64,000 nt of DNA from a plasmid. Location: assembly GCF_055900595.2 (NCBI RefSeq), contig NZ_JBVWEU010000002.1; one strand, given 5' to 3'. Position 1 is the first letter of the stretch, and the number at the start of each line of letters is the position of its first letter. The notes under the pieces were generated by a model. That model did no database searches. It was not told the DNA's origin and was given only the letters and a program-made list of their open reading frames with translations. Positions 7,940 through 33,545 of this stretch are shown in pieces. The position numbers and the translations under genes are program-made.

Positions 7940-8455
7940 TTATCGCCTGTCATCATAGTCCTGCCAACAAGTCCCAAAAGTATTTCCTGCTGAATCAAAT
8001 CCTCCATGCATAGCTAATCCTGTTGCCGGATTAGTACGATAAAAATCCACATAATCAAAATTCACATCATCAAAATCCAGATGCAAATCTTCATTAGTTT
8101 GTTCATTTACCTGAGATTGCATCCATTCTCTTACACTTACACAACCACTAATTCGCCTTAATTCGTATAGTGTACCAATGATAAAAACCATCAGGCTTAA
8201 TAACGGAGAGAGTAAGGAAGATACTGGCATCAGTATATACCAAACGCCTTTACTGAATTTAAACTCATCCGACACATGCCGTTTTTTTCGTATTTGAGAA
8301 AATAACCATATAAACAATCCCTGCCATAGTACAATAAAGCACAGGATAAAAACTGTTTCGGCACTCCCCCAATCAGCCAGATAACAGGCAATGAACTGTA
8401 TCACCGTCACCAGAGCAATATGAGCTAAATTTTTCATTATCATCTCCCCATACAA
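7940..8455 (-). CDS. traS: TraS entry-exclusion inner-membrane protein
   Basis: Hydrophobic ~170-aa ORF in the canonical position between traG and traT. Exact start uncertain (Met1, Met5 or Met7). Confidence 0.7.
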
Positions 8456-8457
8456 TA

Positions 8458-11280
8458 TTATTGCTTGTGCTTATCCTGATACTCCTTTGCTCTTTTCATC
8501 AGTTCCTGTGGACTGTCAGCCCCGGGCATTCTTTCCTGACCCGATTTTTCTTCATTATATTTATTATTCTGAGATAATGCCTCTGTTTTATGGTGATTTT
8601 GTAGTTCAGAATACTGTCTTCCTACAATATTTTCTTCGCCACGTATGCTGCTCTGAGTATCTCCGATATTGCCTCTGTATTCTGTGACCATATTATCAAC
8701 CTGATGTTTTACATCATTACGGATATTACTGTCCTGCGTTCTTTGCTCAATAATGGCCTGATGCCCCTGATGATCAGCAATAATATCCTGGCTGCCACCC
8801 CCCGAAGGTACGCTCTCCATTCCTTTACCGATGTCCCCACGGGATTCACGCCAGGCATTATCAACACCAGGCTGCACCTGTTCCTGAACAAAAGACCACG
8901 CCATAGCCCGACGGCGTTCTGCAATCTCCGGGGAACTGGTGTTTGTCAGAATAGCTTCGGCATCCTGCGGCGCGTGTTTCATCACATACTGTGCAAACTG
9001 TTGCGACAGGTCTTCACTCATCTGCCCACTCATGCTTTCAGTACGGGATGCCATTTCAGCATATTCATGGCTGCGGGTCATATTCGTCGTGTACTGGTCG
9101 TAACTCTGTTTTGCTGAGTTCAGGGCTGCAGACAGCTGGTCCACACGGGAATCGGCATTATTGTCCGTATGGCTGCCGGATTCACTGACCTTGCGACTGG
9201 TAAAGTAATCGCTGGCCTCTTTAAAGTCTTGTGTAGCCCTGGCATCGATATCATGGCGAGCATCATGGCTGGCCCGTGAACCACTGCTGGCCTGATGCGC
9301 ATCCTCATCACTCCAGTCAATACTTGCCCGACCACCACCTCTAACACCTACGCCACCACCAACACCAAGAATTTTAGGTTTAACCCCCCATTCAGCATGA
9401 GCATCGCCATACATCCCCGCAGAACCTCTCGTACTTCTTGATGCCAGTTCTCTTGTCGCCTGCTCATTACTGATATTATGCGCCTTCGCATAGCTTTCCA
9501 CTGCGCTGCGCATACGGCTGGCCATCATGGAGTCCTGTGCACTCATCGTGCTGTCAGCACCACCGGTGACAGAATCACTGCTCCCCCGGTTAGAACCAAA
9601 CTGACTGAGCGAGTTCCAGGCACTGGCAATACTGCTGCTGAACCCATGCAGGGCGCTTTCTGCTCTGTTCGACGCCTCCCGGGCCATTTCCTGTTGTGCC
9701 GCCGCAATCTGACGCGTTGCATTGATACCGACCGGTAAACGGGACATCGCCCCGCTCGCATCCATCACCATATTACCGTCACGGGTCTGTGTGGCGGTTG
9801 CGCCACTGCCGGTCTGGTACATCATCTGACCAAACGACGTGGTGCTGTTGGTGCTCCAGCTGAATCCGTTCACGTTTTCCGTCTGCATGTTGCCGTAGGA
9901 GTAATTACCGTCAACCACACTACCTGCCGCACTGGCAGTCGGGCTGATAGCAGAGGAAGCGAAATGGCTGTACACACTGGAAAATCCGGCCCCGAGTCCC
10001 CTGACCATCATCCAGGATAATGGCGGGATCATCATGGAAAGATACCCGGCAGTGGAAGCCAGATCGGAGTATTTCAGCTGTATCTGTGAAATTTCCGAGA
10101 GCACCACCGGTGCACCATTCTGCTTCGCATAAAATGTCATGGCGCTGTTCAGAATGGCGTACAACATTGGCCATGACTGCAACCACATCAGGGCAAACAC
10201 ATAGCCTTTCAGGACGGACAGCGTCAGTTTGTTGAAGACAGCCGCCAGTACCAGAAGCGGGAAAATACCGATGGCGATCCCCGTCAGGATGGTCTGCGTC
10301 ATGGGCAGTGTCCGCATCGCCACATGACCGATGGAGACATGTGCCAGACGTTGCTTCTCCATCGATGACGTGGTGGCCAGATTCACCAGGCTGGCTGAAT
10401 CACCATTACGCGCGGCATAACTGGTGATCCCCTCCTTCAGCGCATTGATGGTGACATTCTGGCGGATGATCTGGCTGGCTGATTTACTTGAGCCATAGAA
10501 GTAACTGTAACTGTCGCCAATCAGCGTACTGAACAACAGGTTCGGATCAGGGCGTCCACCAAATAGCTGCTGGGCATAATAATGCCAGGTTTTTCCGCCA
10601 CTCTGTGTATCCAGATTCAGCTTGTCTTTCAGCGAAACCGACGCGTCCTTACAGGTCACGAAATTATTATTGCTGTCATAAACGCCCCGTAGCGGACTGG
10701 GGCGGGAAAAAATCAGCGTGTAGGGATCAGCGGAGGCCATCAGCTCCTCCAGCGTGTATTTGTGGTTCAGGTAAATATCCCCCATCACGCAGTTCTGCAC
10801 ATAATCCTGGAAAAGATTGGCGATTTCCGGATTGCGGGACAAAAAGTCGGTGCTTTTTGATACCAGTTCTGCGCCAAACAGCATCCCCGTTTTGCTGTAG
10901 GTGACACTGTCCGGTTGCGTGAAGATCATCTCGTAACTGGCCACCATTGCATGCCCGATACGGGTCGTCAGTGAAAGTGGCATCGCCAGTCCGACCGGCA
11001 CATTATCCACCCGGTGAACTTTGACCAGGTCACTGTTATCAATAATCTGCACCGATGTGCGGACATTAACCAGCAGGCTGATAAGCACAAACACGGCCAC
11101 CCAGCCCAGCAAATCCATCACGTTGTGCCGCTGTACCCACATTACGGCCACCGCGAGAACAGACAATGTGAGCGCAATTTTTTCAATGGAATCCCACGTC
11201 CGGGTCCCCATAAAGGCGGCAATGGCATTCAGGTTATTCCGCAACCACTCACCACCGGCAATCACATAAACTTCATTCAC
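8458..11280 (-). CDS. traG: TraG mating-pair stabilisation / pilus assembly protein (940 aa)
   Basis: Size and position (F TraG is ~938 aa). N-terminal polytopic membrane domain plus large periplasmic C-terminal domain. Confidence 0.93.
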   Translation of the reverse strand: MNEVYVIAGGEWLRNNLNAIAAFMGTRTWDSIEKIALTLSVLAVAVMWVQRHNVMDLLGWVAVFVLISLLVNVRTSVQIIDNSDLVKVHRVDNVPVGLAMPLSLTTRIGHAMVASYEMIFTQPDSVTYSKTGMLFGAELVSKSTDFLSRNPEIANLFQDYVQNCVMGDIYLNHKYTLEELMASADPYTLIFSRPSPLRGVYDSNNNFVTCKDASVSLKDKLNLDTQSGGKTWHYYAQQLFGGRPDPNLLFSTLIGDSYSYFYGSSKSASQIIRQNVTINALKEGITSYAARNGDSASLVNLATTSSMEKQRLAHVSIGHVAMRTLPMTQTILTGIAIGIFPLLVLAAVFNKLTLSVLKGYVFALMWLQSWPMLYAILNSAMTFYAKQNGAPVVLSEISQIQLKYSDLASTAGYLSMMIPPLSWMMVRGLGAGFSSVYSHFASSAISPTASAAGSVVDGNYSYGNMQTENVNGFSWSTNSTTSFGQMMYQTGSGATATQTRDGNMVMDASGAMSRLPVGINATRQIAAAQQEMAREASNRAESALHGFSSSIASAWNSLSQFGSNRGSSDSVTGGADSTMSAQDSMMASRMRSAVESYAKAHNISNEQATRELASRSTRGSAGMYGDAHAEWGVKPKILGVGGGVGVRGGGRASIDWSDEDAHQASSGSRASHDARHDIDARATQDFKEASDYFTSRKVSESGSHTDNNADSRVDQLSAALNSAKQSYDQYTTNMTRSHEYAEMASRTESMSGQMSEDLSQQFAQYVMKHAPQDAEAILTNTSSPEIAERRRAMAWSFVQEQVQPGVDNAWRESRGDIGKGMESVPSGGGSQDIIADHQGHQAIIEQRTQDSNIRNDVKHQVDNMVTEYRGNIGDTQSSIRGEENIVGRQYSELQNHHKTEALSQNNKYNEEKSGQERMPGADSPQELMKRAKEYQDKHKQ

Positions 11281-12653
11281 AGCGTGCTCCCTCCGAAGTG
11301 ATAGTTGTTCTGGTAACGACTGAGCATGCGGGCGGAAAGCTGCTGACGCATGTAGCTCATCTGACGATCGACGACCAGCAGCGCATCCTGCTGTACCTGC
11401 ACCTGTGACTGAAACGCCGCAATCTGCCGGGTGGCATCATTCATGTTGTCGTTAATATGTTCGATAACTGCTTCGTCATAATTTCCTGTGGCCACCATCG
11501 CCCGGGCCTGCTGTATCAGCTCCTGAATGTACTGCAGCAGGATGTCGTAACCGATATAGTCCGTCAGCTGGTAAATCATACTGTTGGAAACACCGAGCAT
11601 TTGCGGGTCAACCAGGTATTTGAAGACGGGGATGGTGGTACTGGAAATAAAGCCTTTTTCCTTGTCATCCAGAGGCGTGTCACTGACCGCCTTGTTCTGA
11701 ATGCTGGCCAGAAGTTTAGTAATCTGAGACTTCAGTGCATTATCCCGGCTGATGGTCACCGGTGTGTCTGCCACCACTTTCAGGCATTTATCAGAATCGT
11801 TGCAGTGATAAATTTTTGCTGTGCCGCCTTCCATCATGACCCGGATAATTGAGCGGTCAGTGGTTCTGGCTGACAAGGGTGTGATTTCGCCGTTAGGACC
11901 AAACACCAGTGAGCCGGTCAACGTCATCACAAACTCTTTCAGCTCTTTGTTGCCGTCAAACATTCTGTTTTTGGAAAGCGCATTCCACATGATGTTGATG
12001 TTTTTGGTCACCCGCTCCTTATCCTTGTCGCTGGCTTTATCCCTGACACTGTCAGATTTCCCGCCAACGGTACATCCCTGCCGGGAAGCCGCCCAGTCAG
12101 CAAAAATATTGCTCTCACCGGCAATGTCCTGACAGACTTTCTGCTGGGACACCTGCGTCCGGGGGAAAAGCCCGCCGATAATCCCCTGTGCCGCCTGGCA
12201 GGAACTGAGGTTCATACTGTTAATGTCGCTTGCCATTTTCTGCAGGAAGTCTTTTGCGGTTTTGATTTCCGGCACCGTTGTCTGCAGGGCAAGGTCAAAA
12301 AAGTAACCGGCAGCATTGCTCATAATCTGCTTAACAAAACGCTGCAGCTGCTCGCCATTAATAAAACTGAACGAGCCGAGATAAGCGTCGATGCCGCCAC
12401 ATCCGGCATTGATATCCGGCAGCGTCATGGAAATCAGCTGAACATTTTTGACCTGAGTACGGGCATACAGGGAGCCACCGTAAGCATAACCGGCGGCCTG
12501 CCCCTGCCAGACGCCCGGCTGTGTGGTATTGGAGGCGAAGCCCAGCTTGTTAAAGAACTGATTCATGTCGCTGTTCACATCCGCTGACGCTGCGGGTGTG
12601 ACCGTCAGTAAAGCAGCACAAAGAACCAGAAGAGGTTTAATGCGTGGCATCAT
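11277..12653 (-). CDS. traH: TraH pilus assembly protein (458 aa, signal peptide)
   Basis: Size identical to F TraH. Synteny traH then traG, with 4-nt overlap. Confidence 0.93.
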   Translation of the reverse strand: MMPRIKPLLVLCAALLTVTPAASADVNSDMNQFFNKLGFASNTTQPGVWQGQAAGYAYGGSLYARTQVKNVQLISMTLPDINAGCGGIDAYLGSFSFINGEQLQRFVKQIMSNAAGYFFDLALQTTVPEIKTAKDFLQKMASDINSMNLSSCQAAQGIIGGLFPRTQVSQQKVCQDIAGESNIFADWAASRQGCTVGGKSDSVRDKASDKDKERVTKNINIMWNALSKNRMFDGNKELKEFVMTLTGSLVFGPNGEITPLSARTTDRSIIRVMMEGGTAKIYHCNDSDKCLKVVADTPVTISRDNALKSQITKLLASIQNKAVSDTPLDDKEKGFISSTTIPVFKYLVDPQMLGVSNSMIYQLTDYIGYDILLQYIQELIQQARAMVATGNYDEAVIEHINDNMNDATRQIAAFQSQVQVQQDALLVVDRQMSYMRQQLSARMLSRYQNNYHFGGSTL

Positions 12654-13045
12654 TCTTGCCCTCCCTTAATTTGTTCTCCCGGCGCATACGACATTTCAGC
12701 AGGAATATCCCGATATTTCCGTCCAGTCCTGCGGCTGTAATATATTTCAGACACCGAAATCCATCCCACAATTGCCCCCACAAAAAACACAACAGAAACA
12801 GAAAAGGTAAGGCACAGCGAAACGACAATTTCTACAGGGCTGGCGGGATAAAAAAGCCCCTGATGGATAAAGGGGATATTCAGGCTGACGATTATTCCCG
12901 TCGCGATGCCGGATATTCCGGCAATGAGTAACACCACCTGCTTATTTCGCACCTTTTTTTCCTCCGTACATCTGCAGAACGGTATCCATCCGCGCCATAA
13001 AACCGGCGGCATCCGTTGCCCCCTGTAAAAGCGGTAATGCCTCAA
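12650..13045 (-). CDS. trbF: Small membrane protein in the TrbF/TrbJ position (131-aa ORF)
   Basis: Position between trbB and traH. Size close to F TrbF (~126 aa). Overlaps the 3' end of trbB. No separate trbJ ORF of 60 aa or more was seen. Confidence 0.5.
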   Translation of the reverse strand: MRHYRFYRGQRMPPVLWRGWIPFCRCTEEKKVRNKQVVLLIAGISGIATGIIVSLNIPFIHQGLFYPASPVEIVVSLCLTFSVSVVFFVGAIVGWISVSEIYYSRRTGRKYRDIPAEMSYAPGEQIKGGQE

Positions 13046-13487
13046 GCGTGTTGACGTTGACCAGGAAGGTGGTCGGTGTGGCCACCGGGATATTCGGGAA
13101 GAAGGTCTGCATCACGTCCGGTGGCACCGGTAATGCTTCCGGAAAGGCGGTATCCCCCTGACCATCCAGGGTGTAGGGAAAAACGGAAAAGCCGTACTGC
13201 TGTGCCAACTGCTTCAGTACCGGGTCAAACTGGTGACAGTAAGGGCAATGCCCCTGCATAAACAGCACCACCTTCCAGTCGGCCAGGTTAACCTGCCTGC
13301 CGTTGCTGAGGCGGAACCAGCGGGGGGCCGGCTTTTCTGTCCTGGCTGACGTGTCTGCTGCCGGTTGTGCAGGCTGCGCGGCCATACCCTGCGGATTCCA
13401 GAGTCGCTCTATTTCATCCCGGGTGGAGGCCTGCACACCTGTGGCCATCATCAACAAAATGACCGGCAGTAAGTTAGTGAGAGACAT
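12942..13487 (-). CDS. trbB: TrbB periplasmic thioredoxin-fold disulfide isomerase (181 aa)
   Basis: CxxC motif (GHCPYCHQ), signal peptide, size equals F TrbB. Confidence 0.87.
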   Translation of the reverse strand: MSLTNLLPVILLMMATGVQASTRDEIERLWNPQGMAAQPAQPAADTSARTEKPAPRWFRLSNGRQVNLADWKVVLFMQGHCPYCHQFDPVLKQLAQQYGFSVFPYTLDGQGDTAFPEALPVPPDVMQTFFPNIPVATPTTFLVNVNTLEALPLLQGATDAAGFMARMDTVLQMYGGKKGAK

Positions 13488-13758
13488 GTCCGCCCTCCTG
13501 CTGCTCTGCCATCATGGCCTGTTGCCTGGCTTCCAGTGCCTCACGCTCTTCCCGGCTGACACGGGCAATCCATGCATCCAGCACCTGGTATGCGCCGAAC
13601 AGCACAAGGATGGCCGCAATCAACTCCGCCAGAAAAAAAGCCATCCAGGGTTTGCTGTAAACAAGACGGGCGACGATATGAAACCAGACACCCAGGGAAA
13701 ATACCCACATTCCCGTAATATCAAGCCGGGGTAAAGAGAATCTGCGTTTACTTATCAT
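13474..13758 (-). CDS. traQ: TraQ pilin chaperone (94 aa)
   Basis: Size equals F TraQ. Membrane helix plus charged C-terminus. Synteny. Confidence 0.85.
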   Translation of the reverse strand: MISKRRFSLPRLDITGMWVFSLGVWFHIVARLVYSKPWMAFFLAELIAAILVLFGAYQVLDAWIARVSREEREALEARQQAMMAEQQEGGHVSH

Positions 13759-14983: not shown

Positions 14984-15203
14984 CTTCATTCCTTTCATCA
15001 CTTTTTCTTTCATCAGGTTTCTGCAGGTCAGTCAGGGCAGAAAAACAAAAATACAGAATAAACAGGAGCACACCGGAGTAAAAAATAACGAAAGCAGCAG
15101 CAAGTATCTCACCTGCAGTGGTTTCTTTTACCGTATCCCACGACCAGATAATTACCGGGGAAATGACAATCGCTGTAATCAAAAGCCGGATGCGTATTCT
15201 CAT
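14976..15203 (-). CDS. trbE: TrbE small membrane protein, probably 5'-truncated (75 aa versus ~86 aa in F)
   Basis: Hydrophobic small ORF overlapping the traF start. Its ATG directly abuts the IS-type terminal motif at 15203, and an in-frame stop lies 4 codons upstream. Confidence 0.6.
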   Translation of the reverse strand: MRIRIRLLITAIVISPVIIWSWDTVKETTAGEILAAAFVIFYSGVLLFILYFCFSALTDLQKPDERKSDERNEDE

Positions 15204-15290
15204 GAAAGGAGATCACTCAATAACTTCCATCGAGATCGGGTAATAACGGCGTTTTTCAAGGTAGTTGTCGCCTTTTGTAATAAAATTACG

Positions 15291-16196
15291 TTATGCCGCT
15301 TCTTTTTCTGGATTCAGATAAACTGCCTGAATGAGTTCCCAGTCACGCAACTGTTTGCTCCAGCGCTCAGGATGACGTTTGCGAGCTTCGCGATAAACTT
15401 TTTTTCTGGCTTCCAGTATTTGTGCGTCAATTCCGCGATGGCGTTCATCCGGAGTAACATACTTAATACCGCTGTGCTTGTGTTCCAGGTTGTACCATCG
15501 CGTGAACTTGCTTAACCAACTTCTGGCTTCATCTATGGTTCGAAAACCATTCTCTGGCCACCATGGACAATACTTAATCGTCCGGAAGAGCGATTCGGAA
15601 TAAGGGTTATCATTGCTGACCCGGGGACGGGAATAAGAACTTAATACGCCAAGCGCGTACATTTTTGCCAGTAACGTACAACTGCGCATTGGTCCTCCGT
15701 TATCAGAATGAAGCACGAGATTGCGGGATGAACATTTTTCATTCCATACAGCACGTTGAAGCAGTTCTGCCGCATACTGCCCAGATTCTTTCGTAAATAC
15801 TTCGGCAGCAATAATTTTTCGGCTATAAATATCGACGATCATATAGAGATAAAAATGCTGCCCCTTAACCCACGATGGGATATAACTAATATCCCAGCTC
15901 CACACCTGGTTGGGGGCTACAGCTTTGAGTACTTCAGGCCGCTTATATTGGTGTTCACGGGTTCTCCTTGTCAGTTGGTTAGCTGATTTTAATACGCGAT
16001 AAAAAGTTGATTCTGACGCGATATAAACCCCTCTGTCGGCAAGAGTCGGAACAATAATATTCGGAGACAATGATGCAAACTCCGGAGAATTGCATACATC
16101 AAGTATTCTTAATCTTTCTGTTTCTGACAGTTTATTCCCCGGGGTACGCCTTGATGCACCTGGTCTCTGATCTGTATGAACCACACCACCCTGCAT
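15291..16196 (-). CDS. IS3-family transposase OrfB (DDE/rve integrase core, 301 aa)
   Basis: Motifs WSWDISYIP, HSDNGGPM and YSESLFRTIKY (E-x7-K) are typical of IS3-family / retroviral-integrase catalytic domains. Confidence 0.85.
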   Translation of the reverse strand: MQGGVVHTDQRPGASRRTPGNKLSETERLRILDVCNSPEFASLSPNIIVPTLADRGVYIASESTFYRVLKSANQLTRRTREHQYKRPEVLKAVAPNQVWSWDISYIPSWVKGQHFYLYMIVDIYSRKIIAAEVFTKESGQYAAELLQRAVWNEKCSSRNLVLHSDNGGPMRSCTLLAKMYALGVLSSYSRPRVSNDNPYSESLFRTIKYCPWWPENGFRTIDEARSWLSKFTRWYNLEHKHSGIKYVTPDERHRGIDAQILEARKKVYREARKRHPERWSKQLRDWELIQAVYLNPEKEAA

Positions 16197-16315
16197 CCAA
16201 CGTTGAAGTGTTCTGACTGAAATACCAATACACTGGCAGGCTTGTGTTTTTCTCGCTCCTGAACTGACAGCCTCGCTGACCAGATTAATAATCTTCTGCC
16301 GCTCTGGAAGAGGAG

Positions 16316-16861
16316 TCAGCCTTCCTCGCTGTTGTCCCAGAGGGCATTGAACTTTTCCCTTAACATCAAAAGAGCAGCTGCTTCCGCCAGAGCTTTATCT
16401 TTACGGAGAAGTTCTTTTTCCAGTTCCCGTAACTGGGTCTTTGCTTCGCGTAATTCTTTATCAGCACGGCGACTTTCTGCCATTTTCATTTCATGAGCCT
16501 GAATGGATATAGCTCTCCATTCTTTAACTTGCTCAACAAATAACCCCATTCTCCGACAATAATCAGCCAGTTCCATTTCAGATAATGTTGCAGTTTCAAT
16601 TACAACAGAAAATCGTCGCTCCGGTGTCCATTCATTTCCATCGACAGAAGATATTTTTTCATTTTCAGGTAACAGGCCTTGTTGCACCAGTTCAAGTCTC
16701 CATCTTGCTATTACTGAAGGGCTCAGGTCCAGTTTACGAGCAATATGCCGTATGGACCAACTATAAGGTGGTAATAACCAGGTAACACCTTGTTCTTTTA
16801 TATCAATTGGTACTGCATGTGCGGGCATAGTCTCTCTCCTGTGTAAAAATCTAGGCGACAA
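16316..16861 (-). CDS. IS3-family transposase OrfA (HTH DNA-binding, leucine-zipper-like C-terminus)
   Basis: Immediately upstream of orfB in a different frame. The 120-nt gap between orfA stop and the first orfB ATG may indicate a frameshift-fusion arrangement or decay. Confidence 0.7.
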   Translation of the reverse strand: MSPRFLHRRETMPAHAVPIDIKEQGVTWLLPPYSWSIRHIARKLDLSPSVIARWRLELVQQGLLPENEKISSVDGNEWTPERRFSVVIETATLSEMELADYCRRMGLFVEQVKEWRAISIQAHEMKMAESRRADKELREAKTQLRELEKELLRKDKALAEAAALLMLREKFNALWDNSEEG

Positions 16862-17020
16862 CTATGCTGACACAGGGGGATAACATTTGAACAGATCGCT
16901 GAATAACATCGATGGAGATCACTTTTGACTCATTTTGTTATTCAGTGATCTCCATCAATGTTATTGGAACTTCACAGGTGTGTTGATCTGTATCTTTTGC
17001 CATTCCGGTAAAGGATACCT

Positions 17021-18562
17021 ATGCCAACAGTTCCAATTTCTATGAGAAAACTTAAAGAAATTCTTAGGCTTAAATACGGTGTTGGACTCAGCCATCGACA
17101 AATTGGTCGTAGTCTTGCAATCTCCCCTTCCGTTGTATCCAGATATGCTAATCGGGCGGCTCAACTTGGCATAAAGCAGTGGCCCTTACCTACAGGATGG
17201 GATGATACAAAACTAAAACATGCGTTCCTTCAGACCCAGGTTAAGATGAAGAAGCACTCTCTGCCTGACTGGGCTACAGTACACCGGGAACTGCGTAATA
17301 AATGCGTGACGCTGCAGCTACTCTGGGAAGAATACTGTGAGCGTAATCCAGGCGGTTTTTACAGCTATAACCATTACTGCCGGATGTACCGTGAATGGCT
17401 CAAAACCACTTCACCATCAATGCGTCAGGTACATAAAGCTGGCGAAAAACTTTTCGTTGATTACTGTGGACCTACCGTTGGCGTTACCGACCCTGAGACC
17501 GGAGAAATAAGAACTGCTCAGGTCATCGTAGCTGTTCTCGGGGCATCAAGTTACACATGGGCAGAGGCCACCTGGTCTCAGCAGCTTGAAGACTGGGTGA
17601 TGAGTCATGTTCGCTGCTTCCAGTGGTTGGGTGGCGTTCCTGAACTTGTTGTTCCGGACAATCTGAAAAGCGCCACATCCAGGGCATGTAAGTATGATCC
17701 TGACGTTAACCCTACCTACCAGCAGATGCTTGAGCATTATAATGTCGCAGTTTTGCCTGCGCGGCCACGTAAACCGAAAGATAAAGCCAAAGCTGAAGTT
17801 GGCGTTCAGGTTGTTGAACGCTGGATCATGGCCCGAATCAGGCATGAGATCTTCTACAGCCTTGCATCGCTTAATCAGCGCATTCGGGAGTTGCTGGAAA
17901 GACTGAATAACAAAATAATGCAGAAGTTGGGTTATTCACGTGCAGAACTCTTCATCCAGCTTGATAAACCCGCACTGAAGCCTCTTCCTGAAGCCAGTTA
18001 CAGTTACACCCTGGTGAAGAAAGTCAGAGTTCATGCCGATTACCACGTGGAAATCGACAAACATTACTACTCGGTTCCATGTTCGCTGTTAGGCCAGCAA
18101 CTGGAAGCATGGATCTCCGGAGAACTGGTAAGACTCTTCAATCAGGGGCAGGAGGTTGCTGTGCACCCGCGCAAGCGTACTTATGGCTACAGTACCCGCA
18201 ACGAGCACATGCCTGAAGCTCATCGACAGCATGCCACCTGGACGCCAGAGCGTCTTCTGGAATGGGCGGGGCACATAGGCAGTGAAACTCATAGTTATGT
18301 GCTTCATATACTGAACTCTCGTCCACATCCGGAACAAAGCTATCGCTTCTGCCTTGGACTCCTGAACCTTCATAAAAAATACAGTAAAGCCAGACTTAAT
18401 GCAGCATGTGCAAGAGCTCTGAAAACAAAGGTATGGCGTCTGTCAGGTATTAAATCGATCCTGGAAAAAGGTCTGGATAAACAACCTGTTCAGGATCCAA
18501 AACCAGATCTGTTATCCACGATGGAACACGAAAACGTACGCGGCAGTGAGTATTACCACTGA
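17021..18562 (+). CDS. istA: IS21-family transposase IstA (513 aa)
   Basis: N-terminal HTH plus DDE core typical of IstA. Followed 11 nt later by istB. Confidence 0.9.
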   Translation: MPTVPISMRKLKEILRLKYGVGLSHRQIGRSLAISPSVVSRYANRAAQLGIKQWPLPTGWDDTKLKHAFLQTQVKMKKHSLPDWATVHRELRNKCVTLQLLWEEYCERNPGGFYSYNHYCRMYREWLKTTSPSMRQVHKAGEKLFVDYCGPTVGVTDPETGEIRTAQVIVAVLGASSYTWAEATWSQQLEDWVMSHVRCFQWLGGVPELVVPDNLKSATSRACKYDPDVNPTYQQMLEHYNVAVLPARPRKPKDKAKAEVGVQVVERWIMARIRHEIFYSLASLNQRIRELLERLNNKIMQKLGYSRAELFIQLDKPALKPLPEASYSYTLVKKVRVHADYHVEIDKHYYSVPCSLLGQQLEAWISGELVRLFNQGQEVAVHPRKRTYGYSTRNEHMPEAHRQHATWTPERLLEWAGHIGSETHSYVLHILNSRPHPEQSYRFCLGLLNLHKKYSKARLNAACARALKTKVWRLSGIKSILEKGLDKQPVQDPKPDLLSTMEHENVRGSEYYH

Positions 18563-18573
18563 TACGGGATCCA

Positions 18574-19323
18574 ATGATGAATCATCTTTACGAACAACTG
18601 ACCGCACTTAAACTCACCGGCTTCCGTGATGCGCTTAAAAAGCAACTTGCTCAGCCGGGCACATACCAGGAGCTGGGCTTCGAAGAACGCCTGTCATTAC
18701 TGACAGCAGAAGAACTAACCTGCCGTGAAAACAGGAAGGCAGAGCGTCTGATCAAACATGCACGGTTCAGACTTAATGCTGAGTTATCAAAGCTGGATTA
18801 TCGTAACAATAGAGGGCTGGACAGGGCCCTCATCCGTTCACTCAGTCAGGGAAACTGGTTAACCCTGAAACAAAATATTTTACTGACCGGGGCCACCGGC
18901 AGCGGTAAAACGTTCCTGGCATGTGCACTTGGTCATAATGCCTGCCGACAGGGATACAAGGTCTACTATTATCGCCTTAAAGCGCTGATGGAACAGTGCT
19001 ATCAGGGGCATGCTGATGGAAGATACAGCAAACTTTTGACCAGGCTGAATAATAGCGATCTGCTGCTTCTGGATGACTGGGGGCTGGAACCTCTCTCATC
19101 AGAACAGCGTAGCGACCTGCTGGAAATAGTGGATCTGATGTACCAACGAGGCTCAATCATCGTAGTGAGCCAGTTGCCGGTGGAAAACTGGTACAAAATG
19201 ATCGGAGACTCCACACATGCGGATGCCATCCTAGATCGACTGGTTCATGGCAGTATCAAGATCGAACTTAAAGGAGAATCAATGCGGAAAATACAATCTC
19301 CGTTGACCGAAGGAGATCAGTGA
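18574..19323 (+). CDS. istB: IS21-family helper ATPase IstB (249 aa)
   Basis: Walker A LTGATGSGKTF and Walker B LLLLDDWG. DnaC-like AAA+ protein as in IS21 IstB. Confidence 0.9.
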   Translation: MMNHLYEQLTALKLTGFRDALKKQLAQPGTYQELGFEERLSLLTAEELTCRENRKAERLIKHARFRLNAELSKLDYRNNRGLDRALIRSLSQGNWLTLKQNILLTGATGSGKTFLACALGHNACRQGYKVYYYRLKALMEQCYQGHADGRYSKLLTRLNNSDLLLLDDWGLEPLSSEQRSDLLEIVDLMYQRGSIIVVSQLPVENWYKMIGDSTHADAILDRLVHGSIKIELKGESMRKIQSPLTEGDQ

Positions 19324-19482
19324 AGGTAATTTAAAAACGGTTCTGTGAAAGTGACACGAACCGATCTCCATCGATGTTACTCACCGATCTCCTTCACGGT
19401 AATACGCACCGGATAAGAAAATCAATAAAACGGTTCGACGTGAATATGACTTTCATCATTTTCCCCGGTTATTTTCCCTACC

Positions 19483-23939: not shown

Positions 23940-26566
23940 GCAACACTCCTGTATTTCTCATGTTCTTCCAGCCAGGCTTCCAGCGAAGCCATCTCCGGCC
24001 CTGACTTCTTCCACGCCAGCTGCCACACCGCCTCATGAATACTCAGCCCCTCTTTACGTTTCTGCTGCACAAACTCAAAATCCGGGCCGTCAGAGCTGTA
24101 CATGGCGCGGCTTAACGGGTCCACAAACAGGCGGTGCCAGGAGGAATGGTTTTCCACCTGCAGCAGGAAGGAACTGAACCACTGATCTTTGGCCGCACCG
24201 AACTTACCAATCATGTCACGCTGCAGTGGCAGGAACTGGTCCGGATACAGCTGGTTGTATTTCGCGAACTCCTTCGCACTCTGTTTGAGGATAATTTTGT
24301 AGGAGGAGTTACCCCATGCTGCACGGGCCGCACTGGAGGCCTTGTCAGAGTCAAAGTCGACGATGTTCTGTGTGATGGTGATATAGGCACCGGTATGACG
24401 GCGGGCGGTACGGTAGCCTTTCTCAATAAATTCACCGACCTTGTGATTTTTGAAGTCCAGCAGACGCCAGCCTTCATCAATGACGTTCAGTTTCTTGAGG
24501 TTACGCGGCGTGCGGTACATCCGGTTCTCAATGTAAATGATAAGGCTGAACATCACCGCAACCAGCAGGGATGGACGGTCTTCCAGTCCGCCCAGCTCCA
24601 GCACCACCATTTTCGCATCATCCCGCAGGGACGGCTCATCGGAGTTGAAATACTGGCCATAAGTGCCGTTAGCAGTGTACTGGTCAAGCAGCACAATCAT
24701 TTCGTCCAGACGGCTGCGGATGGTCGGTGATTCGGCATACTGCTCGCTGTCACTGGCGTTTTTCAGGAAATCCACCACGTCATCAATACGTGCCCTGTTC
24801 TCTTTGGCCAGCCATGATGCCCTGACTGCCTGCAGCAGCAGACCTTCATGCACTTCATCCAGGTTACCGTTGGGGCTGGCCATCACCGACAGCTGGTCGC
24901 GGACACGCTCCGCTGACTGGTCAATATCGGTGATGTTCGCAAACGGGTTAAAGCGCAGGGTTTCACCGTCCAGATATACGCCCCCCATGTTCTCACACAG
25001 GGACTTGTAGCCATCCCCCATGTCGAACACCACGGCAAAGCCCCCGGAGTCCAGCACGCTGCGGATAAGTGGCTGTATCAGCCCGGTTTTACCGGCCCCG
25101 GAGGTGCCACAGACCGCCATGTTATAGTTGGTGTTATTCATCCCCCGGAAGAAAATATCGATAAACGCCAGCTGGTTACGGTAGGTGGGTGCCAGCAGAC
25201 CTGCCGGTGTCAGGGGGTTATCCGCCACTAACGGCATCAGGTTGGCCACATTAAAGCTCTCTGCGCGCTGTACCACTCCGGCCTCTTTCAGCTGTTTAAA
25301 CAACCCTTTCCCGGCCATAAAGGGCAGACAGGTCAGGAAATTGCGCATGTGGTTAAAGCGCGGTGAAATCAGCTCAAAACCGTTTTTACGGAAGCTGTTC
25401 AGGATGTCCTGCTCCACTTCCAGTGCCGTTTCATTATTGTCCTTGCAGAAGGCTGTGATGTTGAGGAAGTAGGACACGACAGAGGACTGACCGGAGCCCA
25501 GCCGCTGACGCAGTTCCCCCCACTCCTTCGCCTCTTTCTCCACGGACGGAAACCATTTGGCATAGGAGGTCTTCGACTTTTTCTCCAGGTCCATGTACTT
25601 CAGGTTGGCTTCGCTGTGGGTTTTCACCTGGTCTTCCACCACCAGAGTCAGCGTCAGGATGAACGGACAGGAGATGGACAGTTCCGGGTTCAGCAGGTTG
25701 CTGTAGTTGTCGGCCATGTTCCACAGGAAGGCGATTTCCGGGTTACGGGCCAGATGGAAATTCAGGATGCGGGCCGTGCTGTTCCTGCCGTTCTCACGCA
25801 GGCCCAGCGTCAGGTAATCAGCCCGGACTTTCAGGTCAAAACTGTCCTCCACACACTGATAATTCAGATCAGAATACGGGTCCAGCTGACGTCTTTTCGG
25901 GTACAGGGAGTCCGGGTTATGGTTAATCATCTCCCCGACAATATCGATAAAGGCCTGTGCATCCACCGTCTGTGTGGTGATACTGGCCCCCTGTAACGAC
26001 GCCCGGATGATTTTCACCAGGTTTTCCATTTCCAGAATGTCGGCCCGGCTTTTTTTCTTCGAAGGAGAACAGTACGAGATAAACACCCGGTAATGGCGCA
26101 GGGTCAGGGGCAGATTCATCCCCTCCGGCAGCGGAAACTGTGTCGCTGCCGCTTTCATATAATAGGCCCGGGTAATGGCGTTAAACCGTTCAGCCTGTTC
26201 ACCTGACCAGGAGAACTCACGCAGCCCGTATTCAATCCTGTCACCAACCAGCTGACTGGACATCAGATGGATACACAACGGAATACCGCGCGGCAGTTTG
26301 GTGCGCAGCATGTGATCGAGGGCCTCCACAATGGACTCATTCGCCCCATTGATGGGAATGGCTTCCAGCATAAAGCCCATCGTGGTGTCATTCATGAACA
26401 GACCGGATTCCTGGTTGTAATCACGATACGGCAGCAGACGGCTGAACTGCGGGAAGCTCATTTCGCCCAGCACTTCATTGGCCTTTGCTGATTCGTCAGG
26501 CAGTTTCAGTGCTGTGACGAGGGAGTTAACCGCCTGAGTGACGGCCTCAAGTGGGTTATTACTCAT
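23936..26566 (-). CDS. traC: TraC (VirB4-like) pilus assembly ATPase (876 aa)
   Basis: Size (F TraC is ~875 aa). Walker A GTSGAGKTG. Synteny. Confidence 0.95.
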   Translation of the reverse strand: MSNNPLEAVTQAVNSLVTALKLPDESAKANEVLGEMSFPQFSRLLPYRDYNQESGLFMNDTTMGFMLEAIPINGANESIVEALDHMLRTKLPRGIPLCIHLMSSQLVGDRIEYGLREFSWSGEQAERFNAITRAYYMKAAATQFPLPEGMNLPLTLRHYRVFISYCSPSKKKSRADILEMENLVKIIRASLQGASITTQTVDAQAFIDIVGEMINHNPDSLYPKRRQLDPYSDLNYQCVEDSFDLKVRADYLTLGLRENGRNSTARILNFHLARNPEIAFLWNMADNYSNLLNPELSISCPFILTLTLVVEDQVKTHSEANLKYMDLEKKSKTSYAKWFPSVEKEAKEWGELRQRLGSGQSSVVSYFLNITAFCKDNNETALEVEQDILNSFRKNGFELISPRFNHMRNFLTCLPFMAGKGLFKQLKEAGVVQRAESFNVANLMPLVADNPLTPAGLLAPTYRNQLAFIDIFFRGMNNTNYNMAVCGTSGAGKTGLIQPLIRSVLDSGGFAVVFDMGDGYKSLCENMGGVYLDGETLRFNPFANITDIDQSAERVRDQLSVMASPNGNLDEVHEGLLLQAVRASWLAKENRARIDDVVDFLKNASDSEQYAESPTIRSRLDEMIVLLDQYTANGTYGQYFNSDEPSLRDDAKMVVLELGGLEDRPSLLVAVMFSLIIYIENRMYRTPRNLKKLNVIDEGWRLLDFKNHKVGEFIEKGYRTARRHTGAYITITQNIVDFDSDKASSAARAAWGNSSYKIILKQSAKEFAKYNQLYPDQFLPLQRDMIGKFGAAKDQWFSSFLLQVENHSSWHRLFVDPLSRAMYSSDGPDFEFVQQKRKEGLSIHEAVWQLAWKKSGPEMASLEAWLEEHEKYRSVA

Positions 26567-26691
26567 ATGAGTATTCCTTAGTGCGTTTAAAAAAGGAAAA
26601 TATCAGTCTGTGGCCGTGGATATATCACGCAGTGCCATTCCTGAAACCACAGCACAAATAAGAGATGGAGGCTTTTAACAGGAAACCAGGA

Positions 26692-27081
26692 TTAACGTTC
26701 CTTTACTGAATGAGCATCATTTAATGCCTGAATTTGTTTTTCGCGAATCTTATTGCGCTCATTTTCTCTTACCCGTTTCACCTCTGCCATTTCGTTTCTT
26801 TCTCTACACGCTGATGCAAGCTCTTTTGCCTTACCAAGACTTAAAGGTTCAGGCTGATAATCAGATGTGTCAGACTTAATAGCTTCCTTAAATGCTTCTG
26901 CTGCACAGGGGATATCCTGTGTAATCTCTGTCAGTTGTTCTGGTGTTGCAGGTTGTTGCTCAAGGTAGTCATTGTAAAAAAGACCACATATCAACATAGC
27001 CATAACGCCAACAAATATAAAAGCCAGAACAGATTTTAAATATATCGACTTCATTTCATTTTCCTTCGAAGCAGTAAGCAC
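26692..27081 (-). CDS. Hypothetical protein, N-terminal signal-anchor (129 aa), in the traR-traC interval
   Basis: ORF track. Hydrophobic N-terminus, charged C-terminus. No family recognised. Confidence 0.5.
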   Translation of the reverse strand: MLTASKENEMKSIYLKSVLAFIFVGVMAMLICGLFYNDYLEQQPATPEQLTEITQDIPCAAEAFKEAIKSDTSDYQPEPLSLGKAKELASACRERNEMAEVKRVRENERNKIREKQIQALNDAHSVKER

Positions 27082-27300
27082 TCATTGCCCACCACCATTC
27101 AGTGTTTCCATCACGTTGTTCAAAGGTTCATTTGTTTTAACTTCAATACATTCCCCTGTATTTCCAAAGCCCCTGCCTCCGTGTGCTTCGATTGTCCGAA
27201 GAACCTGCACGCATACGTCCGTATTTGGCATGGGAGTAACATTCCAGCTTCCGCCACCGTTAATATTTTTTATCAGCACAAGAAAAATAAAGGTATGCAT
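27082..27300 (-). CDS. Hypothetical small secreted protein (72 aa), traR-traC interval
   Basis: ORF track. N-terminal hydrophobic segment. Tight spacing with neighbours. Confidence 0.35.
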   Translation of the reverse strand: MHTFIFLVLIKNINGGGSWNVTPMPNTDVCVQVLRTIEAHGGRGFGNTGECIEVKTNEPLNNVMETLNGGGQ

Positions 27301-27379
27301 TCTTTATTACCGCCTGTTAAATATTAATCACTGAATATCCCTTCAGTTAACTTATGAGGTCATAAAACACTGCAGATTC

Positions 27380-27895
27380 TCATTCGGATTTATTCTCTTC
27401 AGTAAACTTCCGGATGGTATCCTGTTCACGCTGACGGGTGGCAGACTCCTGCATTGCATCCACTTTCTCCTGCCAGAGACGCCGGATATCCTGTTCATCC
27501 CGACCAGTCAGTTTTTTACCGGACAACAAACGGTTAAGCAGTTCCTGTCTCGCATCCGGTACGTCTTCAGTCAGACGCATAAGCTGAAGCAGGCTCTGAC
27601 GGCTGAGGACCATGCGTGATTCCTCCGGTACGCTGTAATAATTAAAAATACGACTGAATACCCCACAACAGCAGGCAACGGACAGGCACAGGGATTTCAG
27701 ATACAGGCCAGAAACACAGAATGTGGCAACACCACAAAGAATAGCTATAACTAAAAAGCCCTTACCCAGCGCCATACACAAAGAACCCTGTTTTCTGGAT
27801 ATCCGCTCATGCTCATCCAGAATAAAATCTATTTTTTCATTTTCTGATTTATGCATAGTGTTTCCTCTGCCTTTCCTGATACGCCTGACATTCAA
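27380..27895 (-). CDS. Hypothetical membrane / coiled-coil protein (171 aa), traR-traC interval; overlaps the traR 3' end
   Basis: ORF track. Central Cys-rich transmembrane segment followed by a charged helical tail. Confidence 0.5.
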   Translation of the reverse strand: MNVRRIRKGRGNTMHKSENEKIDFILDEHERISRKQGSLCMALGKGFLVIAILCGVATFCVSGLYLKSLCLSVACCCGVFSRIFNYYSVPEESRMVLSRQSLLQLMRLTEDVPDARQELLNRLLSGKKLTGRDEQDIRRLWQEKVDAMQESATRQREQDTIRKFTEENKSE

Positions 27896-31759: not shown

Positions 31760-32312
31760 CGTCTGTTTCCCCGAAATTATCCAGCCAGGTCACCCCGTTT
31801 TCCCGCTTCAGAATAAGGATGTAATGTTTGATATCAGTGAAAGGTTTTGAATCACCAATCCAGGTTTTAAGCACACCACGAATTTCCACACGGCCATACT
31901 GAGGCCAGACACGAACACTGGTCTGGAAAAAGGCTGAGTTCACGTTATCGTTTTTAATACGCTTCGCTTCTTCAGCCAGAATAACTTTCATCTGGTTCTG
32001 TGCGCCCGGGCGGATATATTGCAGAAGCGCCTGATGTGAGGCATCGACGGTTTCTGATGAAACATTCAGACGGAGGGCAATAAATGACAGCGCCATCTGC
32101 TGTAAATAAGAGGCGTCGGCACTGTTCTGTGACACGGCAAAGGGAGCATTAAATGCCATTGGCGTCACGGCAGTGCGTTGCTCATTCTGAAGACGGTAGT
32201 TATTCACCCCCTGAATGACGTTAACAGAGAGGCTGAGAACAATAAGCACTGACATAAATATAAAGGCGATGGCCATTACACGACTGGTACTTAAACGGGC
32301 ACCGTGTTCCAT
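31746..32312 (-). CDS. traE: TraE (VirB5/VirB8-like) pilus assembly protein (188 aa)
   Basis: Size identical to F TraE. Single N-terminal TM. Confidence 0.95.
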
Positions 32313-32333
32313 ATAACAATCCTGGTATCAGTT

Positions 32334-32645
32334 CTATTTAATCCACTGCCGGAAACACGAATCGGGAACATTATGAAAAATACCGCGCAGCAGGGCTGTT
32401 GGCATATACCAGTAAATCAGGTCACGTAACCAGGAACTGCCCCGCCCTTTTTTCAGTTTTTTAATCCCGAAATAAACCAGAACCGCTGCACCAATACCGA
32501 ACAGATATTTCGATGTTGTGATACCCCAGCCAATACAGATTGCTGCGGGGATCAGTTCATCCAGTGGCAGGCCAAACCAGCGGCTCTGGTTGGTCAGTGT
32601 TTCCGGGAAACGATATTTCTTAAGTTTATTCTCGTCTCCCGACAT
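32334..32645 (-). CDS. traL: TraL (VirB3-like) (ORF 103 aa)
   Basis: Sequence as recalled for F TraL. Start codon choice uncertain. Confidence 0.9.
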
Positions 32646-32659
32646 CGTTTTATTTCCTG

Positions 32660-33019
32660 TCAGAGGCCAACGACGGCCATACCCACAGCAATAAATACAG
32701 AGATGATGGCAAAACCGGCCAGGAACTTGACGTTTTTGGTCATCATGTACATGACAGCACCGACCAGAACTTCAGCCAGAACAACCCATTTAACAACACT
32801 GGAGTCCTTACCGAAGGTCGCCTTAACCGTGGTGTTACCGCTTGCCATCAGGTCCTGGCCCTGTGCTGCCATTGCCAGTTGCGGGAAGAACATCATCAGA
32901 ACAGCAGCCGGGATCACAGCGCGAGCCAGGCGAAGCATATTCAGACGAGTGAATTTAGAAAAAAACGATTTCTTTTTGACGGGCGCAGAAGCACCCTGAA
33001 CACTTAAAACAGCATTCAT
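32660..33019 (-). CDS. traA: TraA propilin (119 aa); mature N-terminus [13 protein letters not shown]...
   Basis: Matches F propilin except in the N-terminal epitope region (F has AGSSGQDLMA). Confidence 0.95.
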
Positions 33020-33051
33020 AAGTTACCTCAATTTCGGATAAATGAATAAAA

Positions 33052-33453
33052 CTAGAGTGTATTAAATGTTATATCTTCCTCTTTATCTGCCTCCCTGAAT
33101 ATCTCCGAGTTATAAAAATCAGGAAACTTGATCAAATGATCAATAACTCTGTCTGCAGCCTCATCTGTTTTACACCATCCACTACGATTTTTGGCTGCAA
33201 TAAGTAGCTGGTTAGTTTCATCATCCAGACGCATTGTCAGATACTTAACCAGCGACTTACCATAGATATTCCCTGCCCTGTTAAACTTTGGATAGCGGTG
33301 AAGATGATCTTTAAGTCTTATTACTGCCTCAAACGATCGACTTCTTCCGCTTCTGTTACTTGCCTCAATTAATAGACTTTCCACATCTACAGGTAATTTT
33401 AGTTTTACCATCTTACCTGTTGCAGAACGTGTACCAAATCTTTTCAATAACAC
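33052..33453 (-). CDS. traY: TraY ribbon-helix-helix oriT-binding protein
   Basis: Near-identical to recalled F TraY (..KRFGTRSATGKMVKLKLPVDVESLL..). Confidence 0.9.
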   Translation of the reverse strand: MLLKRFGTRSATGKMVKLKLPVDVESLLIEASNRSGRSRSFEAVIRLKDHLHRYPKFNRAGNIYGKSLVKYLTMRLDDETNQLLIAAKNRSGWCKTDEAADRVIDHLIKFPDFYNSEIFREADKEEDITFNTL

Positions 33454-33545
33454 CTCCCGCTGTTTATCTTCTGGTTACCACTTATGTTTGCAGAATAATC
33501 AGAAAAGGTAAATAGACGGAAAGTCTATATTTTATTAACACTTTA
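33454..33545 (-). promoter_or_regulatory. P_Y region (main tra operon promoter, TraJ/ArcA-dependent in F)
   Basis: Position between traJ stop and traY start. Assigned by analogy with F only. Confidence 0.35.

What the first reader, a model, noticed from the sequence alone, without database searches (positions are those of the whole stretch)
32660..33019. Pilin N-terminal epitope differs from F (AQGQDLMA versus AGSSGQDLMA)
The propilin is otherwise F-identical but is two residues shorter at the mature N-terminus, the region that defines F-like pilus serotypes and some pilus-phage interactions. From memory this resembles the ColB2-type pilin, but I cannot verify that here.
Basis: partly seen in the sequence, partly recalled or inferred. 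Interest (0 to 1): 0.3.

Follow-up and report, generated by a model that had tools for sequence, protein, structure and literature searches.

The report
Common ColB2-type F-pilin allele
This is the pilin gene of an F-type conjugative plasmid of E. coli, carrying a long-known and very common natural variant of the pilin's exposed N-terminal tip (AQGQD instead of F's AGSSGQD), so it is ordinary.

Summary
Window 32660-33019 (minus strand) is an intact traA gene for a 119-aa propilin. It is identical to F plasmid TraA except at the start of the mature protein, where AQGQD replaces AGSSGQD, making it two residues shorter. The mature protein equals R1 pilin minus R1's extra C-terminal lysine. It differs from the F, R1, R100 and pED208 types, which leaves the ColB2 type (group II) among the five published natural F-like pilin types. 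I could not retrieve the ColB2 reference sequence itself. The allele is not rare. A 60-nt probe across the site matches exactly in 781 sequenced plasmids, against 760 for the F-type site, and matches in 793 of 5,426 complete E. coli genomes. The exact protein has a UniProt name (PIL6_ECOLX). All DNA differences from F within about 1.2 kb lie in one 112-nt patch of traA whose synonymous sites match R1, so the epitope probably arrived by a short recombination. The changed residues lie in the flexible, surface-exposed tail. In the MS2-F-pilus cryo-EM structure, density attributed to that tail enters a pocket on the phage maturation protein, so a small effect on serotype and phage binding is plausible but untested. 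Separately, this plasmid carries a 4.2-kb double IS insertion in trbE, upstream of the pilin chaperone gene traQ. Verdict: already known, low interest.

The parts
32660..33019 (-). traA, propilin gene (119 codons plus stop)
   Evidence: ORF list; Pfam TraA PF05513 E=2.9e-66; annotated as traA in identical plasmid genes
33026..33029 (-). Shine-Dalgarno GAGG, 6 nt upstream of the traA ATG
   Evidence: Read directly from the sequence; inference, not tested
32867..33019 (-). 51-codon leader peptide ending in the AMA|A leader-peptidase site. The amino acid sequence is identical to F despite 6 synonymous nucleotide differences.
   Evidence: Alignments. The cleavage position is taken from F pilin literature, Ala51/Ala52 (PMC7555446).
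32663..32866 (-). Mature 68-aa pilin (F is 70 aa, R1 is 69 aa)
   Evidence: PDB F-pilus chains 5LER/6NM5 are identical over residues QDLMAS...VVGL
32852..32866 (-). Variable N-terminal codons AQGQD (F has AGSSGQD). AQG replaces the flexible AGSSG tail. The Asp that corresponds to F Asp7 is kept.
   Evidence: role of the tail and of Asp7 from PMC6635492
32858..32969 (-). 112-nt patch that holds every window-versus-F difference within window 32300-33500. Its synonymous sites match R1. Probable recombination tract.
   Evidence: Poisson P of about 3e-4 or less against the local background rate
33052..33453 (-). traY, upstream neighbour, F-type two-domain form, 100% identical to F
32334..32645 (-). 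traL, downstream neighbour, 100% identical to F
13474..13758 (-). traQ, pilin chaperone needed for propilin insertion and accumulation; 97.9% identical to F TraQ
   Evidence: Pfam TraQ PF09679 E=4e-41; role from PMC10939261 and PMC7690428
15192..19408 (.). 4,217-bp insertion of two IS elements inside trbE, between traN and traF, upstream of traQ in the tra operon. One is IS3-family with its genes on the minus strand. The other is IS21-family, ISEc12-like, with istA/istB on the plus strand. This bears on whether the pilin is matured in this plasmid.
   Evidence: Breakpoints and 6-bp flank overlap relative to pB771; Pfam rve, HTH_Tnp_1 and IstB_IS21 matches; ISEc12 annotations in related plasmids; trbE matches F only from residue 10

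Best explanation
This is the traA gene of an F-type (MPF_F, IncF) conjugative plasmid of E. coli. It encodes the group II, 'ColB2-type', variant of F-like pilin. By analogy with F, the pathway is as follows. The 119-aa propilin is inserted into the inner membrane with the help of TraQ. Host leader peptidase removes its 51-residue leader after Ala-Met-Ala. TraX acetylates the new N-terminal alanine. The 68-residue pilin is then polymerised with phospholipid into the conjugative pilus by the TraL/E/K/B/V/C/W/U/F/H/G machinery, which is also F-type here. Only the first residues of the mature protein differ from F: AQG replaces AGSSG. These residues form the flexible, surface-exposed tail of each subunit. 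The expected effects are a different dominant antigenic type and possibly a modest change in how MS2/R17-type RNA phages grip the pilus. Pilus assembly and DNA transfer should not change. The variant sits on a roughly 112-nt R1-like patch in an otherwise F-identical traY-traA-traL stretch, so it was most likely acquired by short-tract homologous recombination between F-like plasmids. Shown here: the sequence identity, the context, the allele frequency and the patch. Inferred: processing, acetylation, the serotype consequence and the phage consequence.
For: The gene and protein are as described. The protein is identical to F TraA outside the N-terminal site. The mature part is identical to R1 pilin apart from R1's extra C-terminal Lys, and the protein differs from R100 at many positions. 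pED208 pilin is only distantly related (5LEG, E=1.4e-12). The exact protein is in public collections on at least 1000 contigs under the UniRef name PIL6_ECOLX. The AQGQD-site probe is exact in 781 plasmids and matches in 793 of 5,426 complete E. coli genomes. The F-site probe is exact in 760 plasmids. The surrounding tra genes are F-type: TraY, TraL, TraE, TraC and TraW 100%, TraN 99.8%, TraQ 97.9%. The window is about 99.9% identical to the E. coli plasmid pB771_128330, which has an intact traX. The published classification lists ColB2 as one of five natural pilin types (PMC3245843; PMC2836999). The tail is flexible and may contact the phage (PMC6635492). Domain I and the C-terminus are surface-exposed (PMC10939261). 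R17 infects cells carrying R1, whose pilin has the same N-terminus (PMC3245843). For the patch, 14 differing columns fall in 112 nt, with none in traY, traL or the last 195 nt of traA. The patch's synonymous sites equal R1, and P is about 3e-4 or less.
Against: The ColB2 reference sequence could not be fetched, so the label 'ColB2-type' rests on elimination, on the R1 relationship and on my memory of Frost et al. 1985. traX lies outside the window, so acetylation is inferred from the near-identical plasmid. In this plasmid a 4.2-kb IS insertion in trbE lies between the tra promoter and traF, traQ, traH, traG, traD, traI and traX. It could reduce their expression and hence pilin maturation, but nothing here tests expression. 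No data accessible here measure phage or antibody binding to this variant.
Confidence: 0.9

Rival explanations
1. It is an F (group I) pilin gene with a private 6-nt deletion or an assembly error at the N-terminal codons.
For: The rest of the protein is identical to F.
Against: The same 60-nt site is exact in 781 independent plasmid records and matches in 793 complete genomes. It is linked to 6 synonymous changes shared with R1. The change is a substitution plus a length change, not a simple deletion.
Confidence: 0.01
2. It is the R1-19 (group III) pilin type.
For: It has the same AQGQD N-terminus and the same leader synonymous sites as R1.
Against: R1 TraA ends in ...VVGLK (120 aa) and has Thr3 in the leader. 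The window protein ends in ...VVGL, as F does. The 120-aa K-ending form exists as a separate common protein (P0003).
Confidence: 0.02
3. It is a previously unrecognised pilus serotype or phage-escape variant.
For: The ColB2 reference could not be aligned directly. The changed residues are in the tail that may contact the MS2 maturation protein.
Against: The exact protein has a curated UniProt-style name (PIL6_ECOLX) and is extremely common. Its N-terminus is that of the classic plasmid R1, which supports R17 infection (PMC3245843).
Confidence: 0.04
4. The gene is intact, but in this particular plasmid few or no pili are made. The reason would be that the two IS elements in trbE are polar on the distal tra genes, including the chaperone gene traQ and the assembly genes traF, traH and traG.
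For: A 4,217-bp insertion splits trbE between traN and traF. TraQ is needed for F pilin to accumulate (PMC10939261). No plasmid in PLSDB has this exact double-IS arrangement.
Against: ISEc12 insertions between traN and traF recur in several other plasmids, so such insertions are tolerated. IS elements and internal promoters can drive downstream genes. All distal tra ORFs in the window are intact. Expression cannot be tested here.
Confidence: 0.3

Closest known systems
ColB2 pilin (group II F-like pilin; subtypes IIa ColB2 and IIb R124; Finlay et al. 1984, Frost et al. 1985)
   Same: By elimination among the five published types, and by the relation to R1, the mature sequence should be identical: [12 protein letters not shown]... 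with an F-type C-terminus (the exact ColB2 sequence is from memory).
   Different: The reference was not available for direct alignment. The plasmid backbone here is F-like (traM, traJ and traY 99-100% identical to F), not necessarily that of ColB2.
F plasmid TraA (group I; NC_002483 traA; PDB 9moq_A, 5LER, 6NM5)
   Same: The 51-aa leader is identical, and mature residues from Gly5/Gln6 to the C-terminus are identical. Gene order and flanking genes are the same.
   Different: The mature N-terminus is AQG instead of AGSSG (68 versus 70 residues). There are 6 synonymous differences in the leader.
R1 / R1-19 TraA (group III; NZ_KY749247)
   Same: Same AQGQD N-terminus, and the same nucleotides at all 6 leader sites that distinguish the window from F.
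   Different: R1 has an extra C-terminal Lys and Thr3 in the leader. Its traJ and traY are of a different type: traJ is 81% identical and traY is the short 75-aa form.
R100 / R100-1 TraA (group IV; NC_002134)
   Same: Same length (119 aa) and same family.
   Different: The N-terminus is AGKGDLMAKGND, and there are further substitutions in the leader and near the C-terminus.

Membership tests
F-type conjugative pilin TraA (Pfam PF05513) | Full-length match to the TraA family profile | tested here: met
   E=2.9e-66, 221 bits against a cut-off of 22.6, residues 1-117 on profile positions 1-118
F-type conjugative pilin TraA (Pfam PF05513) | Long (about 51-aa) leader ending in Ala-X-Ala, followed by Ala as the first mature residue (substrate of LepB and TraX) | tested here: met
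   The leader is identical to F, with ...QLAMA|A conserved. The cleavage site in F is from PMC7555446.
F-type conjugative pilin TraA (Pfam PF05513) | [quoted passage not shown] | tested here: met
F-type conjugative pilin TraA (Pfam PF05513) | Cognate maturation genes traQ (chaperone) and traX (acetylase) present | tested here: inconclusive
   traQ is present and intact at 13474-13758. traX lies beyond the window start. It is intact in the 99.9%-identical plasmid pB771.
F-type conjugative pilin TraA (Pfam PF05513) | N-terminal acetylation and assembly into a pilus | not testable with these tools
   Needs mass spectrometry or electron microscopy
Group II (ColB2-type) F-like pilin | Mature N-terminus AQGQD, as in ColB2 | tested here: inconclusive
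   AQGQD is present and equals the R1 N-terminus. The ColB2 sequence was not retrievable, and the statement that R1-19 has a ColB2-like N-terminus is from memory of Frost et al. 1985.
Group II (ColB2-type) F-like pilin | F-type C-terminus (...VVGL) without the extra Lys of group III | tested here: met
Group II (ColB2-type) F-like pilin | Remainder of the mature pilin identical to F | tested here: met
Group II (ColB2-type) F-like pilin | Reacts with anti-ColB2 serum but not with F N-terminus-specific antibody | not testable with these tools
   Serology required
Group I (F-type) pilin | Mature N-terminus AGSSGQD | tested here: not met
Group III (R1-19-type) pilin | Extra C-terminal Lys | tested here: not met
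Group IV (R100-1-type) pilin | N-terminus AGKGDLMAKGND plus substitutions near the C-terminus | tested here: not met

The most novel reading that the evidence does not exclude
The exposed N-terminal tail of F-like pilins may be passed between otherwise different plasmid backbones as a roughly 100-nt mini-cassette. Here an R1-like patch sits in an F-identical traY-traA-traL stretch, and the same tail occurs on F-type and R1-type regulatory backbones. The exchange may be kept at balanced frequency (about 780 versus 760 plasmids) by selection from RNA phages whose maturation protein has a pocket for that tail. If so, the two-residue-shorter AQG tail would measurably change MS2/R17 adsorption.
Probability: 0.2. 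Interest if true: 0.35.

Novelty: already known. Interest (0 to 1): 0.07.

Why it matters
It matters little as a discovery. The allele was sequenced in the 1980s and is carried by roughly a sixth to a fifth of sequenced traA-bearing IncF plasmids. Its practical value is for typing. Antibodies or phage-derived reagents raised against the F N-terminus should not be assumed to recognise pili of this large plasmid group. The MS2-F-pilus structural model, built on the AGSSG tail, may not transfer unchanged to them. The sharply bounded recombination patch is a tidy example of mosaicism in F-like transfer regions, which is a known phenomenon.

Tried and rejected
(1) I tried to read the primary ColB2 and F-like pilin papers: PMC219321, PMC214732, PMC372961, PMC94017 and doi 10.1128/jb.163.1.331-335.1985. 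None is held. (2) A full-text search for AQGQD, Ala-Gln-Gly-Gln, 'ColB2 pilin' and 'ColB2-like' found no paper stating the sequence. Other literature searches gave only the type lists. (3) Accessions AP001918 and KY749247 are not in the collections under those names. NC_002483 and NZ_KY749247 worked. (4) The pEntH10407 paper was checked for a statement on traA type. It has a 121-aa F/R100-like TraA and is not informative. (5) I rejected the sequencing-artefact, R1-type and new-serotype readings; see the rivals. (6) I did not run structure prediction, the large protein searches or collection scans. The protein is identical to solved F pilin outside a tail that is disordered in the structures, so those runs could not change the verdict.

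Full report
**1. The observation**

Window 32660-33019 on the minus strand is an ATG-initiated ORF of 119 codons plus a stop. A GAGG sits 6 nt upstream of the ATG. The protein matches Pfam TraA (PF05513) end to end, E=2.9e-66.

I aligned it to the 121-aa full-length pilin chain in PDB 9moq_A and to traA of the F plasmid, NC_002483. It is identical at every residue except directly after the leader-peptidase site, where ...QLAMA|[10 protein letters not shown]... replaces F's ...QLAMA|[12 protein letters not shown]....

**2. Context**

- The neighbours are traM, traJ, traY, then traA, traL, traE, traK, traB, and so on down the minus strand.
- The window is about 99.9% identical to E. coli plasmid pB771_128330 (NZ_CP120558.1; IncFIA/FIB/FIC, MPF_F).
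- Protein by protein, the transfer system is F-type. TraY, TraL, TraE, TraC and TraW are 100% identical to F. TraN is 99.8%, TraB 99.4%, TraK 99.2% and TraQ 97.9%.
- The window begins inside traI, so the acetylase gene traX is outside it. traX is intact in pB771.

**3. Which pilin type it is**

I aligned the protein with the reference plasmids available.

- R1 (NZ_KY749247) has the same AQGQD N-terminus but ends in ...VVGLK and has Thr3 in the leader.
- R100 (NC_002134) has AGKGDLMAKGND and further substitutions.
- pED208 pilin is only distantly related (PDB 5LEG, E=1.4e-12).

Published text lists five natural F-like pilin types: F, ColB2, R1-19, R100-1 and pED208 (PMC3245843). It also lists traA subtypes I (F, ColVBtrp), IIa (ColB2), IIb (R124), III (R1) and IV (R100) (PMC2836999). 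The window protein fails the distinguishing feature of four of the five types, which leaves type II.

My recollection of Frost et al. 1985 is that R1-19 has a ColB2-like N-terminus plus an additional C-terminal lysine. That is exactly the relation I see between R1 and the window protein. I could not obtain the ColB2 sequence or the 1984/1985 papers. The label is therefore well supported but not directly verified.

**4. How common it is**

- The exact protein is in the public protein collection on at least 1000 contigs and carries the UniRef name PIL6_ECOLX.
- The whole gene is 100% identical in 6 plasmid records and at least 99% identical in 626 of 4,223 plasmid records that match traA.
- A 60-nt probe centred on the variable site is exact in 781 plasmids. 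It matches in 793 of 5,426 complete E. coli genomes.
- The corresponding 66-nt F-type probe is exact in 760 plasmids.

The 'variant' N-terminus is therefore as frequent as the textbook one. The R1-like form with the terminal Lys is also common (P0003, 701 contigs).

**5. A recombination patch**

Across traM to traB the window and F differ at 79 of 6,006 aligned columns. Within window 32300-33500, all 14 differing columns fall between 32858 and 32969, which is traA nt 51-162. They comprise six synonymous substitutions in the leader plus the N-terminal codons. traY (402 nt), traL (312 nt) and the last 195 nt of traA have no differences.

At all six synonymous sites the window equals R1. Against the local background rate of 1.1%, seven or more events in 112 nt has a Poisson probability of about 3e-4.

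Synonymous changes are not expected from selection on the epitope alone. A short recombination or gene-conversion tract from an R1/ColB2-like allele into an F-like backbone, or the reverse into F, is the simplest reading. The same tail also occurs on two very different regulatory backbones: F-type traJ/traY here, and R1-type traJ/traY in R1, where traJ is 81% identical and traY does not align. Mosaicism of F-like tra regions is known in kind.

**6. Mechanism (inferred from F)**

- The propilin is inserted into the inner membrane and stabilised by TraQ (PMC10939261; PMC7690428).
- LepB cleaves between Ala51 and Ala52, and TraX acetylates the new N-terminus (PMC7555446; PMC7690428).
- The leader, the cleavage motif and the N-terminal Ala are all conserved here, and traQ is present.
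- The deposited F-pilus chains (5LER, 5LFB, 6NM5) start at Gln6.
- The MS2-F-pilus study states that the first five residues, AGSSG, are flexible in the free pilus. In the complex, extra density that may correspond to them extends into a hydrophobic pocket of the maturation protein, while Asp7 and Asp23 form salt bridges (PMC6635492).

In the window pilin the tail is AQG, three residues instead of five, and the Asp corresponding to Asp7 is kept. I therefore expect a different dominant antigenic type and at most a quantitative effect on binding of MS2/R17-type phages. R17 productively infects cells carrying R1, whose pilin has the same N-terminus (PMC3245843), so the variant does not abolish infection by group I RNA phages. 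None of this was measured here.

**7. A caveat specific to this plasmid**

Relative to pB771, the window has a 4,217-bp insertion at 15192-19408, with 6 bp of the flanks duplicated. It contains an IS3-family element and an IS21-family (ISEc12-like) element. It splits trbE, which matches F only from residue 10.

trbE itself is dispensable in F (my own knowledge). However, the insertion lies between the tra promoter and traF, traQ, traH, traG, traD, traI and traX, so polarity on pilin maturation and pilus assembly is possible. ISEc12 insertions between traN and traF recur in other plasmids, which argues that they are tolerated. Expression cannot be judged from sequence.

**8. Verdict**

The feature is a known and very common allele of a well-understood gene. 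Novelty: already known. Interest: low.

Noticed in passing
window 15192-19408: A 4,217-bp insertion absent from the closest plasmid (pB771), flanked by a 6-bp duplication. It splits trbE between traN and traF. It holds an IS3-family element (ORFs at 15291-16196 and 16316-16861, minus strand) and an IS21-family ISEc12-like element (istA 17021-18562, istB 18574-19323, plus strand). No PLSDB record has this double-IS arrangement in one place. It may be polar on the distal tra genes, including traQ.
   Followed up: partly
window 32858-32969: Every window-versus-F difference in the 1.2 kb spanning traY, traA and traL lies in this 112-nt patch of traA. The six synonymous sites in it match R1. This looks like a short recombination tract carrying the N-terminal epitope.
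   Followed up: yes
window 7940-8455 (minus strand) and 8458-11280 (traG): F TraS has no detectable match in the window. The ORF at the traS position is annotated only as hypothetical in pB771. TraG is 91.7% identical to F. The plasmid therefore probably belongs to a different entry-exclusion specificity group from F, despite its F-type pilus genes and F-type TraN (99.8%).
   Followed up: partly
window 4762-6924 (traD, minus strand): TraD is 720 aa here, 756 aa in pB771 and 717 aa in F. The difference from pB771 is a 108-nt length change at about window 5041-5066, seen as overlapping blast segments, which suggests variation in repeat copy number.
   Followed up: no
window 26566-27852: About 1.3 kb with three small ORFs lies between traR and traC. 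F has only about 160 nt there. The ORFs are annotated as hypothetical proteins in p135-3 and pB771.
   Followed up: no
window 12650-13045: The trbJ/trbF region is diverged from F. TrbJ is 87% identical, and only the last 39 residues of F TrbF find a match, at 64%. pB771 annotates no trbF.
   Followed up: no
window 1-4762: The window starts inside traI: residues 1-1587 of the 1,756-residue F TraI are matched at 97.7%. traX and finO therefore lie outside the window. In pB771, traI is not listed among the protein-coding genes of the PLSDB table.
   Followed up: partly
E. coli genome search: Nine of the 833 matches to the AQGQD-site probe are on chromosomes rather than plasmids. These may be integrated F-like elements.
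   Followed up: no
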